Virus record (IMG/VR): IMGVR_UViG_2563366976_000008
Location: 1-11,953 of that record
Source of the DNA: a virus
Lineage: Duplodnaviria > Heunggongvirae > Uroviricota > Caudoviricetes
Reading direction: 5' to 3' (one strand)
Length of the DNA stretch: 11,953 bases
This document shows positions 9,001-11,953 of the stretch, one piece after another. Numbering within the stretch: the stretch's first letter is position 1; the number at the start of each line of letters is the position of its first letter. Position numbers: made by a program.

Positions 9001-11953
9001 GTTATCACTTCTGCTCTCATTGCTGGTTTGCGCTTGCATTGCAAGACCACTCGTGAGGGGGTTGGCCTGTGTAGCTTGTCGGAGCTGATCGCCTCCTGAC
9101 TTTGCAGATTTGCACGACGAGCTCTACGGCGAGAAGCTGCGGTTCCTTTAAATTCTGTTTTTCTGGACATAGATTCCTCCCGAATAAACTTTGGCGATGC
9201 AATCTCGAAGCCCCTCCTGAGACGGTTGCTTCGGCATTGCATCCCACAGCTTATGTGGTTGGGTGATCTGGCTTTTCAGCCACGTAGTCGAGTGTTCGAC
9301 GTTGTTTAAAGAGCCTGCCAATCTTTTCCGTTTGGCTACCAGCGTCCTGCTGATGGAAATAATAGTCACATATTGTGATTTAATGGTCAATCACAAAATG
9401 TGTAAAATAAGGGTGTGACACGTTATGTGTATGATTTTTTTGTGTAAATAGTTTTCCCCGCGATGGGTTTGCTTACTTAAGGCGGGGGAAACAGCAGGAT
9501 GGTGTGCTGAAAAGTTCGAAAAACGAGCGAAGTAGGTGGTGACGAGATGGCGGGATATGGGAGTTGTATTAAGAATTATAGTAATTTAATCAGAGGCTTG
9601 GGCTGGCTGGCAGGTGCTGTCCTGATAGTTATGTGCAGGCAACAAAAAACCCGGGGCGGTTCAGGTTGTCTCATTTTTTAGTTTGCTTTGGATTCGGTTT
9701 GTCTCTTCTTCCAATTATAAACACGCTAGTTAAAGCAACTAACTCAGCACCAAGAAGCCCGGTAGCCCAGCCATAAGCCTCGTGCTGAATCATCTTGTAA
9801 GCAATTCCTGCGAAAACAAAGACAGAAGTCATCGCAAAGATCTGTCCGAGTCGATCTCGCCAAATTGCTCCCCTCTGTCCTGCTTTGTAATACTCGTGTC
9901 TGTGTTTTTGCTCAGCCTTAGCCATGTCCATTATTTCGCGAGCGAATCCTGGAGATATTCTTTCGTACTTAGCTAATTCGTCAGCGTCTGGGAGTGGCCC
10001 TGATCTAGTGTGAGTCACCTGCATCATGATGCCAGCTAGATCTGGCCTGTCCATGAGGCGCTCAAGAACTTGAGGGTTCTTTGCGACCTCATTTATAAGC
10101 AGTTCGGTTTTACCGTCTTGAACTCGCCCTAACGGAGTTGGTTGGTTAACAAGATTTCTCGGTGCGGCGGTTTGAAGCTTTCTTTGGGATTTTTTTCTGC
10201 TCATTATCAGTTACAGCGTCTCTAACGTAACTACCTACCTTAACCCAATCTGAGTTGATAAGGTCGATGTCTGTAGCATTTGAATGATACTCGCTGTAGC
10301 TACCTGCTGGGCAAAGGTCAAGGATAGAGCCCATAGCGCTGAAAAAGTGCTTTGCAGATTTTTTCATGTGGGGTGTCCTATATGTTGTTTACTCTAATTT
10401 GAGTAATTGAAGTTTACGCAAAACCTAGCTTTCAGCAAGCAATACAGCACAAAAAATCATGTAAATTTGCGTCTATTTTTATCTACCGGAAAAATGCTCA
10501 ACAACTTTAGAGAAAAAATAGCAATACCAAATCAAACCAATTGCTGCTTCGCCTCTACCCAAACGTCTCTTCAGGCCACTGAGCCTTAACTACCTTGCCT
10601 ATGATGCGGCATGTGTGATCGCAGTCCAGGGTTCTGTATGCCGGATTCAATGGAACCAAGTAACTAACCCCTGCATCCTTCTCATACTTCTTGAACGTTG
10701 CCTCTGAATCACCATTTGCAGAAGCCACGCAGAAATCCCCAGACTCTACCGGCTCGGCCGGATCAACGAGTATCAGCATACCCTCAGGAAAACTCGGCCT
10801 TACGCCCTGTGGCGCAGTCATAGAATGGCCTTTCACCTCAAGCCAGAAAGCTTTTTCGCTGGCTTTTGTGGTCGTTGGGACCCATGCCTTTGCATCGCTT
10901 GCTGTGTAGCTTCCAACCTCCGAAAACGGCCCGGCCTGCACTGAAGAAAATAACGGGTACTCATATTGGCGAAATACAGCGTCTGAATCCTCGCCAAACA
11001 TTATTTTTGCCGGAGATACGCCGAGTGCCGCCCCAAGAACCAGCGCGTCATCCGCGCTAACCTTTCTTGTTCCTAACTCGTAGTTCCCCAGGCGTGAAGG
11101 CGCAGCCCAGCCGCAAAGCTTGGCCAATTGAGCCTGGCTAAGTCCTTTAGCTTCTCTAAGGGACTTGATCCTTTCCCCGATAATTTCATGCATCGTTTTC
11201 ATCCTTTAAATGTAACACGCAACGTGATTGAACTCTGTACACGAATTGAGGTTGACTGTTAATCACAAATTGTGTGTAATGGGTGTGTGATTAATACTAG
11301 GGAGACCGCAATGAACAAAATTGCCCAGCAGCGAAAAAAAATCGGAGTTTCGCAAGCTGTACTGGCTTCGGCAATTGGTTGGGGGCAATCCCGCATCGCC
11401 AACTATGAGCTGAATATCCGTACTCCTAGACTTAACGATTGCCGAAAGATCGTAGAAGGCCTCAGGAAGTTAGGGTGCCAATGTTCTTTGGATGATGTTT
11501 TCCCTCCATCCAGTAACAAAGCCGCCTAAGCAGTACCCGCTCTTTGTAACAACGGACATTCGTCCTACGTCGCTGAAAAGCGAGTCCCAAGATATCTGAC
11601 CAACTAAGGCCATATGCGTTTCCACGCATACCTTTCAACTAACTATTCACTATTGGAAATCTTAAGAAATGGAAAGAACAAGTTACAGCAAACTATCACA
11701 GCGTGACGTTGATCGCGCTGAAACAGATTTACTTATCAACCTGTCAACGCTTACTCAGCGCGGTCTGGCAAAGATGATTTGAACCGCCCCGGGAATCCTG
11801 GAGACTAAACTTCCTGAGAAAGAGGTAAACAGGATGACTAAAAATACTCGTTTTTCCCCTGAAGTCCGTCAACGGGCAGTCCGTATGGTTCTGGAAAGTC
11901 AGGGCGAATATGACTCACAATGGGCGACAATTTGTTCCATTGCTCCAAAGATT

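What the first reader, a model, noticed from the sequence alone, without database searches (positions are those of the whole stretch)
9362..9430. OL operator triplet built on TCACA-N3-TGTG half-sites overlapping pL
Three sites with about 25-bp spacing overlap the -10 and -35 of a leftward promoter, mirroring lambda OL1-3 architecture with a different sequence. The same motif recurs at OR. This defines the immunity specificity and predicts the repressor's recognition sequence.
Basis: seen in the sequence. Interest (0 to 1): 0.35.

Follow-up and report, generated by a model that had tools for sequence, protein, structure and literature searches.

The report
Known prophage OL operator triplet
The three repeated sites are the left operator of a lambda-like prophage, where the phage repressor most likely shuts off the leftward early promoter; the same six sites are already annotated in the Stx1 phage VT1-Sakai, so the finding is correct but ordinary.

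Summary
Three 17-bp near-palindromic sites lie at 9364-9380 (OL1), 9389-9405 (OL2) and 9416-9432 (OL3), with centres 25 and 27 bp apart. OL1 and OL2 overlap a leftward promoter, TTGACC-N17-(TG)GACTAT, that points at nutL and gene N. Three more sites (OR3, OR2, OR1; 11213-11277) lie between divergent cI and cro. The exact motif TCACANNNTGTG occurs only at OL1, OL2 and OR1 (4 strand hits against 0.08 expected). OL3, OR2 and OR3 keep only the core CAC-N5-GTG or CAC-N5-GAG.

All six 17-mers are identical to the "putative operator" features of phage VT1-Sakai (AP000400). They also occur in mEpX1 and in 105 of 5426 complete E. coli genomes, including O157:H7 EDL933.

A scoring matrix built only from the window's sites finds the same 3+3 layout in prophages of Salmonella, Pantoea, Trabulsiella, Scandinavium and Winslowiella that share the cI DNA-binding domain. 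Heteroimmune phages L and H-19B share the left flank but carry other operators.

The most likely mechanism is lambda-type repression by a cI that has an Xre-type HTH domain and a lambda-like, self-cleaving C-terminal domain. I found no binding experiment. Verdict: already known, low interest.

The parts
9364..9380 (-). OL1, a 17-bp operator (AGTCACATATTGTGATT). It lies between the -35 and -10 of pL and overlaps 4 bp of the -10. Its right half supplies the TG of an extended -10.
   Evidence: Sequence. Exact motif hit. Identical to a VT1-Sakai 'putative operator'. Scores 20.0 bits. Conserved in relatives.
9389..9405 (-). OL2, a 17-bp operator (AATCACAAAATGTGTAA). It overlaps 2 bp of the pL -35.
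   Evidence: Scores 19.5 bits. Conserved in relatives.
9416..9432 (-). OL3, a 17-bp operator with a degenerate left half (TGACACGTTATGTGTAT; core CAC-N5-GTG). It lies upstream of pL, at about -61 to -77.
   Evidence: Scores 17.2 bits. The core is invariant in 10 of 10 aligned loci. No OL3 was found in the Aeromonadaceae locus L012.
9362..9390 (-). Predicted pL: -35 TTGACC (9390-9385), 17-bp spacer, TGn plus -10 GACTAT (9367-9362). The predicted start is near 9355.
   Evidence: Custom scan gives 8 of 12 matches plus the extended -10 TG. Annotated as 'putative major leftward promotor' in VT1-Sakai. The G of TTG and the final AT of the -10 lie outside the operators and are invariant across 10 loci. 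Not called by the consensus scan.
9287..9314 (-). nutL-like element: boxA-like GCTCTTTAA (9314-9306) followed by a boxB-like hairpin GTCGAACACTCGAC (9300-9287).
   Evidence: Sequence. Hairpin listed. Corresponds in position to the VT1-Sakai 'putative N-utilization leftward' feature. The boxA comparison rests on the lambda boxA consensus quoted in the mEpX1 annotation.
8898..9170 (-). Antiterminator gene N, the first gene of the pL transcript. The likely start is MSRKTEF at 9170; the ORF is open up to 9242.
   Evidence: Pfam N_peptide PF25694, E 2.4e-32. Translation.
9648..9667 (-). Terminator-like hairpin plus T-run, ending the cI (pRM) operon just before the OL region.
   Evidence: An analogous terminator is annotated in VT1-Sakai.
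10555..11202 (-). cI repressor, 215 aa: an Xre-type HTH N-terminal domain plus a lambda-like S24 self-cleaving C-terminal domain.
   Evidence: Pfam HTH_3/HTH_31 and Peptidase_S24. 99.5% identical to the mEpX1 repressor. Residues 76-215 match the lambda repressor structure 3bdn at E 1.6e-51, with VQA-G, GHSM and TFKK aligned.
11213..11277 (+). OR3 (11213-11229, TAACACGCAACGTGATT), OR2 (11237-11253, GTACACGAATTGAGGTT) and OR1 (11261-11277, AATCACAAATTGTGTGT). They overlap pR: TTGACT at 11252-11257, N17, TGTAAT at 11275-11280.
   Evidence: pR scores 10 of 12. The 24/24-bp spacing is conserved in all relatives.
11311..11529 (+). cro, 72 aa. Its HTH recognition helix (GQSRIANYEL) resembles that of cI ([10 protein letters not shown]).
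   Evidence: Pfam HTH_3. Translation. cI N-terminal domain against Cro: 41% identity over 44 aa.

Best explanation
This is the left operator (OL1-OL2-OL3) and early leftward promoter pL of a lambdoid prophage. The prophage belongs to the VT1-Sakai / mEpX1 / CP-933V immunity type.

The proposed mechanism is as follows. Dimers of the prophage cI repressor (10555-11202) recognise 17-bp pseudo-palindromes through an Xre-type helix-turn-helix. The invariant contacts are C4-A5-C6 of each half-site. Repressor bound at OL1 and OL2 occludes the -10 and -35 of pL. That silences N and the whole leftward early operon. The same protein at OR1 and OR2 silences pR and cro.

The C-terminal domain is about 60% identical to that of lambda cI. 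I therefore expect pairwise cooperative binding to adjacent sites, and probably OL-OR looping over about 1.85 kb that involves OL3 and OR3. I also expect RecA-stimulated self-cleavage at the conserved Ala-Gly site, which would lift repression during the SOS response. Cro, whose recognition helix is closely related, would bind the same sites in the lytic mode.

What is shown here: the sites, their non-random occurrence, their identity to annotated sites, their co-occurrence with this DNA-binding domain across genera, and the protein domain make-up. What is inferred: actual binding, the order of affinities, cooperativity, looping and the transcription start.
For: - Sites and spacing.
- Motif enrichment: 4 hits against 0.08 expected.
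- Independent detection by a repeat search.
- All six 17-mers are identical to the 'putative operator' features of VT1-Sakai, and pL and pR sit at the positions of its 'putative major leftward/rightward promotor' features.
- Gene context N / nutL / cI / cro.
- A matrix built only from the window's sites recovers 3+3 sites with the same 27/25 and 24/24 spacing in Salmonella phage S107 and in prophages of Pantoea (four species), Trabulsiella, Scandinavium and Winslowiella. That is 51 hits of at least 12 bits against 2.0 in shuffles, with 50 of the 51 inside the clusters.
- In the OL alignment, operator core columns carry 1.93 bits against 1.00 bits for spacers.
- The cI recognition helix is invariant in all these loci.
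- Heteroimmune phages L and H-19B share the flank up to the pL -10 but have other repressors and other operators.
- OL and OR each occur in 105 of 5426 E. coli genomes and 107 records.
- The C-terminal domain is homologous to lambda cI, with the cleavage and catalytic residues aligned.
Against: - I found no experimental binding, footprint or transcription-start data in the searchable literature. In VT1-Sakai the sites are labelled only 'putative'.
- The -10 GACTAT matches 3 of 6 positions, so the consensus scanner did not report pL.
- A second candidate, TTTACA-N17-TTAAAT (9406-9378), scores equally well. OL1 and OL2 would cover it too.
- The most distant relative (L012) appears to have only two OL sites.
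- The prophage carries an IS in cII, so the switch may sit in a defective prophage.
Confidence: 0.88

Rival explanations
1. Only OL1 and OL2 are functional repressor sites, as in phage 933W, which has two OL sites. OL3 would be a decayed or non-functional look-alike.
For: OL3 has two mismatches to TCACA in its left half. It does not overlap the promoter. The Aeromonadaceae relative L012 shows no OL3. A review states that 933W has only two OL sites (PMC8065619).
Against: OL3 scores 17.2 bits, higher than OR2 and OR3. Its CAC-N5-GTG core and its 27-bp offset are conserved in 10 of 10 aligned loci from several genera, while the adjacent spacer is not.
Confidence: 0.08
2. The TGTGA and TCACA words are binding sites for a host global regulator such as CRP, not for the phage repressor.
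For: TGTGA and TCACA are the CRP half-site words (established knowledge: the CRP consensus is TGTGA-N6-TCACA).
Against: Order and spacing are wrong. Here the arrangement is TCACA-N3-TGTGA, and the only TGTGA...TCACA pair in the CRP order (9374-9395) is 12 bp apart. The sites track one phage HTH domain across genera and are absent from heteroimmune phages that share the same flank.
Confidence: 0.02
3. The palindromes are chance products of an AT-rich intergenic region and have no function.
For: The region is AT-rich, and short palindromes are common in such DNA.
Against: 0 of 200 shuffles reach the observed count. The same six sites occur at matching positions and spacings in distant relatives, 51 hits against 2.0 expected. 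Core columns are nearly invariant while spacers vary.
Confidence: 0.01

Closest known systems
OL/pL and OR/pR of Stx1 phage VT1-Sakai (AP000400; Sp15 / CP-933V type), and also mEpX1, phiSTEC801-Stx1a and PDP110P1
   Same: All six 17-bp operators are identical. pL and pR are at the same positions. The OL region is 96.5-96.9% identical. cI is 99.5% identical to the mEpX1 repressor. The features are annotated as 'putative operator' and 'putative major leftward promotor'.
   Different: There are two substitutions outside the operators, one in the OL2-OL3 spacer and one just downstream of the -10. The cargo genes between OL and cI differ: DUF2335 plus a 73-aa ORF here, H0053 in VT1-Sakai. The nutL boxB differs from VT1-Sakai. 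Here cII is cut by an IS.
Phage lambda OL1-OL2-OL3 / pL
   Same: Three 17-bp pseudo-palindromes. The -35 lies between OL1 and OL2. N and nutL are downstream. A cargo-gene slot and cI lie upstream, and there is a matching OR triplet. The 17-bp frame is the same, with invariant C4-A5-C6 in the half-sites. The repressor C-terminal domain is homologous, E 1.6e-51.
   Different: Half-site positions 1 and 7-9 differ: A/T-rich centre here, G/C-rich in lambda. Cross-scoring of the matrices is at or below 0 for 10 of 12 comparisons, so heteroimmunity is predicted. Spacing is 25/27 bp against 24/20 bp in lambda. No solved-structure match to the lambda repressor extends into the N-terminal domain.
Salmonella phage L / ST64T OL region
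   Same: The left flank is the same up to the pL -10 (CCGTTTGGCTACCAGCGTCCTGCTGATGG). The OL1-OL2 spacing is 25 bp. The sequence TATGTGTATGA at the distal end is shared.
   Different: The repressor HTH differs (TQGAIGHWLNG) and so does the operator core (TAC-N5-GTA). No matrix hits of at least 12 bits fall at its OL or OR apart from one chance-level hit.
Stx phages 933W and H-19B operator regions (Tyler et al. 2004; Shi and Friedman 2001, as summarised in PMC8065619)
   Same: Lambdoid Stx-phage immunity regions with operator clusters at pL and pR. H-19B shares the flank left of pL.
   Different: 933W is reported to have 2 OL sites and H-19B 4 OR sites. This phage has 3+3. The H-19B cI is unrelated in its N-terminal domain, its operators are of the ATGATAAAT type, and it gives no matrix hit of at least 9 bits.

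Membership tests
Lambdoid tripartite OL operator / pL early promoter | Three tandem pseudo-palindromic sites of about 17 bp sharing one consensus, with centres 20-27 bp apart | tested here: met
   Sites at 9364-9380, 9389-9405 and 9416-9432, spaced 25 and 27 bp. Enrichment.
Lambdoid tripartite OL operator / pL early promoter | The sites overlap a sigma-70 promoter that points at N | tested here: met
   TTGACC-N17-TGn-GACTAT at 9390-9362, overlapped by OL1 and OL2. Promoter bases outside the operators are conserved. This is sequence-level evidence only: the consensus scan did not call it, and a second candidate lies 16 bp upstream.
Lambdoid tripartite OL operator / pL early promoter | The same motif recurs as a triplet at OR, between divergent repressor and cro genes | tested here: met
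   OR3, OR2 and OR1 at 11213-11277, between cI (ends 11202) and cro (starts 11311).
Lambdoid tripartite OL operator / pL early promoter | The repressor has an HTH DNA-binding domain plus a LexA/S24 self-cleaving domain | tested here: met
   Pfam HTH_3 plus Peptidase_S24. Ala-Gly, Ser and Lys align with lambda cI.
Lambdoid tripartite OL operator / pL early promoter | N antiterminator and a nut site immediately downstream of pL | tested here: met
   N_peptide PF25694. BoxA-like sequence and hairpin at 9287-9314.
Lambdoid tripartite OL operator / pL early promoter | Repressor and Cro physically bind the sites and repress pL | not testable with these tools
   No footprint, EMSA or transcription-start data found.
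VT1-Sakai / mEpX1 immunity group | Identical operator sequences and a near-identical repressor | tested here: met
   The six 17-mers are identical. cI is 99.5% identical to mEpX1. OL and OR each occur in 105 of 5426 E. coli genomes.
VT1-Sakai / mEpX1 immunity group | Homoimmunity in vivo: a lysogen excludes superinfecting group members | not testable with these tools
   Requires plating experiments.
Lambda immunity (imm lambda) | Operators match the lambda consensus TATCACCGC half-site | tested here: not met
   The lambda matrix scores the window's sites at -7.8 to 0, except OR3 at 9.4. This phage's matrix scores lambda's sites at -5.7 to 6.0.
CRP binding site | TGTGA-N6-TCACA arrangement | tested here: not met
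   The arrangement here is TCACA-N3-TGTGA. The nearest pair in the CRP order is 12 bp apart.

The most novel reading that the evidence does not exclude
The OL cluster may hold more than three textbook sites. A half-site-like word A(T/A)(T/A)CACA lies 15 bp beyond OL3 (window 9441-9447) and is kept in most relatives from other genera. The unusual 25/27-bp OL spacing, against 24/20 bp in lambda, is also kept. Together these could mean a fourth partial contact, or a higher-order repressor geometry different from lambda's, built by a chimeric repressor (Xre-type N-terminal domain on a lambda-type C-terminal domain).
Probability: 0.1. Interest if true: 0.3.

Novelty: already known. Interest (0 to 1): 0.12.

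Why it matters
The sites define the immunity type of the Stx1 prophage of E. coli O157:H7 (VT1-Sakai / CP-933V) and of mEpX1. About 2% of complete E. coli genomes carry it. The consensus derived here is a 17-mer with CAC at positions 4-6 and GTG at positions 12-14 around an A/T-rich centre. It can be used to assign prophages to this immunity group and to design binding experiments. It adds no new principle: the architecture is the lambda paradigm, and the sites were annotated as putative operators in 2000. The only real gap is that they still seem to lack experimental confirmation.

Tried and rejected
1. The sigma-70 consensus scan did not report pL or pR. A custom scan recovers both, plus an alternative pL candidate.
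2. I asked whether H-19B, whose operators were studied experimentally, has the same immunity. It does not. Its cI N-terminal domain and its operators are unrelated.
3. I asked whether there is a fourth OR site like H-19B's. A half-site AATCACA lies downstream of the pR -10 (about 11283-11295) in the E. coli versions only. It is not conserved in relatives and scores below 8 bits. Rejected.
4. Cross-recognition with lambda operators is rejected by cross-scoring.
5. The CRP-site reading is rejected on geometry.
6. Literature searches for VT1-Sakai or mEpX1 operator experiments found none. The 933W operator paper (PMC524894) is not held.
7. The Rfam scan found nothing in the OL region.
8. No complete E. 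coli genome in the collection covers 80% or more of the window, so I did not identify the exact source strain.

Full report
**What is in the sequence**

Window 9362-9432 contains three 17-bp near-palindromes:
- OL1, 9364-9380, AGTCACATATTGTGATT
- OL2, 9389-9405, AATCACAAAATGTGTAA
- OL3, 9416-9432, TGACACGTTATGTGTAT

Their centres are 25 and 27 bp apart. That is 4 strand hits against 0.08 expected, and 0 of 200 shuffles reach 4. With one mismatch allowed, the only extra locus is a single site at 6097. OL3 fits only the looser core CAC-N5-GTG. A motif-free repeat search pairs OL1 with OL2 and OL1 with OL3.

**Context**

- Left of the sites, on the minus strand, are a boxA-like GCTCTTTAA and a hairpin (9287-9314).
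- Next comes gene N (8898-9170; Pfam N_peptide, E 2.4e-32).
- A sieB gene lies beyond N on the plus strand.
- Right of the sites are a terminator-like hairpin (9648-9667) and a two-gene cargo slot: a DUF2335 membrane protein and a 73-aa ORF.
- Then comes a 215-aa cI with HTH_3 and Peptidase_S24 domains (10555-11202).
- Between cI and a divergent 72-aa HTH_3 cro (11311-11529) are three more sites spaced 24 and 24 bp: OR3 11213-11229 TAACACGCAACGTGATT, OR2 11237-11253 GTACACGAATTGAGGTT, and OR1 11261-11277 AATCACAAATTGTGTGT. They overlap pR, TTGACT-N17-TGTAAT.

This is the standard lambdoid immunity layout.

**Promoter**

The leftward promoter that fits the layout is TTGACC (9390-9385), N17, GACTAT (9367-9362), preceded by TGn, an extended -10. 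It matches 8 of 12 positions, so the tool's consensus scan did not list it. My own scan lists it together with an equally scoring alternative 16 bp upstream, TTTACA-N17-TTAAAT.

In a 10-locus alignment, the G of TTG and the last two bases (AT) of the -10 lie outside the operators and are still invariant. Neighbouring spacer columns vary. This favours the first candidate. OL1 and OL2 cover either candidate. OL3 lies upstream of both.

**Already annotated**

The GenBank record of Stx1 phage VT1-Sakai (AP000400) carries three 'putative operator' features and a 'putative major leftward promotor' on exactly these sequences. It carries three more operators with pR and pRM at OR.

All six 17-mers are identical between the window, VT1-Sakai and mEpX1. 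The only OL differences are two substitutions outside the operators. cI is 99.5% identical to the mEpX1 repressor.

The OL and OR segments each occur in 105 of 5426 complete E. coli genomes and in 107 records. These include O157:H7 EDL933 and Xuzhou21.

**Independent comparative test**

I built a symmetric scoring matrix from the window's six sites only. I then scanned loci that encode the same cI N-terminal domain at 73-100% identity. These were Salmonella phage S107, four Pantoea species, Trabulsiella, Scandinavium, Winslowiella and an Aeromonadaceae metagenome-assembled genome.

- Each locus shows three sites just upstream of cI, spaced 24/24 bp.
- Eight of the nine show three sites 0.8-2.7 kb downstream, spaced 27/25 bp; the Aeromonadaceae locus L012 shows only two, 24 bp apart.
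- At 12 bits or more there are 51 hits in 72 kb against 2.0 in dinucleotide shuffles. Fifty of the 51 lie in these clusters.
- Forty-one loci with distant or partial HTH matches give 4 hits in 295 kb.
- In the OL alignment, operator core columns (positions 3-6 and 12-15) carry 1.93 bits, the operator centres 1.44 bits, and the inter-operator spacers 1.00 bit.
- The cI recognition helix PSR(L/V)GNYELG is invariant across these loci. Cro carries the related (Q/P/L)SR(I/L)(A/S)NYE(L/Q). cI and Cro align over the HTH at 41% identity.

Conversely, phage L/ST64T and H-19B share the flank ...GCGTCCTGCTGATGG that ends immediately left of the pL -10. They then carry different operators: TAC-N5-GTA in L and the ATGATAAAT type in H-19B. 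Their repressors differ too. So the operators travel with the DNA-binding domain, as expected of immunity determinants.

**Mechanism (inferred)**

- The C-terminal domain (residues 76-215) matches the lambda repressor structure at E 1.6e-51. The Ala-Gly cleavage site, the catalytic Ser (GHSM) and the Lys (TFKK) all align.
- The most likely mode of action is therefore lambda-like. Dimers bind the 17-mers. Adjacent dimers cooperate at OL1-OL2 and OR1-OR2 and occlude pL and pR.
- OL3 and OR3 probably take part in long-range OL-OR contacts over about 1.85 kb.
- RecA-stimulated self-cleavage would induce the prophage.
- By matrix score, OR2 is the weakest site (12.8 bits). This resembles lambda, where the intrinsically weak OR2 is filled cooperatively (established knowledge).
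- None of this has been tested on this system as far as I could find.

**Relation to lambda operators**

Using lambda's annotated operators, both systems use a 17-bp frame with invariant C4-A5-C6 in the half-sites. They differ at positions 1 and 7-9: A/T-rich here, G/C-rich in lambda. Cross-scoring is at or below 0, except for lambda OR2 against this phage's matrix and this OR3 against lambda's matrix. Heteroimmunity with lambda is therefore predicted.

**Verdict**

The feature is a standard lambdoid OL/pL and is identical to one annotated, as putative, in VT1-Sakai. It is already known and of low interest.

The residual uncertainties are the exact transcription start, whether OL3 is functional, and the lack of experimental binding data.

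Noticed in passing
window 11669-11953: The cII-like ORF is cut after 37 codons (MERTSYSKLSQRDVDRAETDLLINLSTLTQRGLAKMI*). 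An IS3-family element cuts it: its end, TGAACCGCCCCGGG, starts at 11780 and its first ORF starts at 11835. The prophage is probably defective for establishing lysogeny, and perhaps beyond that.
   Followed up: partly
window 9671-10367 (-): The slot between OL and cI holds a DUF2335 membrane protein gene and a 73-aa ORF. The same slot holds different cargo in VT1-Sakai (H0053), mEpX1, S107 and lambda (rexAB). OL is thus a roughly 70-bp immunity-specific island separated from cI by swappable genes.
   Followed up: partly
window 10555-11202 (-); L003 5342-5980: cI is a domain chimera: an Xre-type N-terminal domain on a lambda-like C-terminal domain, about 60% identical to lambda cI. Salmonella phage S107 has the same N-terminal domain joined to a different C-terminal domain that looks closer to lambda's.
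   Followed up: partly
window 9340-9361; L004 about 3500-3530; L054 about 2820-2835: The sequence GCGTCCTGCTGATGG, immediately left of the pL -10, is shared with the heteroimmune phages L/ST64T and H-19B. It marks a recurrent recombination junction at the edge of the immunity region. TATGTGTATGA, at the right half of OL3, is also shared with phage L, where it serves that phage's third site in a register shifted by 2 bp.
   Followed up: partly
window 9441-9447: A half-site-like word (TTACACA on the minus strand) lies 15 bp beyond OL3. It is kept as A(T/A)(T/A)CACA in most relatives. The flank beyond OL3 is more conserved (1.34 bits) than the inter-operator spacers. It may be an extra half-operator, or conserved for another reason.
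   Followed up: no
window 9451-9492: An 11-bp inverted repeat, GTTTTCCCCGC...GCGGGGGAAAC, with a 20-nt loop lies just beyond OL3. The stem is not kept in VT1-Sakai.
   Followed up: no
window 7123-7181 (-): Rfam Lambda_thermo, the cIII thermoregulator element, scores 88.5 bits here and marks the cIII start region.
   Followed up: no
window 11203-11215: A -10-like TACATT ends 6 nt before the first ATG of cI. If it is the pRM -10, the cI mRNA would be leaderless, as in lambda. VT1-Sakai instead annotates pRM as TGTACA...TGTTAC and starts cI at the second ATG.
   Followed up: no
window 1-2015 (-): A lambda-type integrase (1-1074) and an AntA/P22_AR_C antirepressor-family gene (1356-2015) lie at the far left of the early-left region. 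Also present are dATP/dGTP pyrophosphohydrolase-DUF551, Ead/Ea22 and AAA_24 genes.
   Followed up: no
L042 3880-3976: In a Ruminococcus metagenome-assembled genome, two palindromes (ATCCACATTTTGTGGAT and ATCCACAAAATGTGATA) sit just upstream of a gene. That gene's HTH start is 71% identical to cI residues 7-27. This may be a distant relative of the same recognition code.
   Followed up: no
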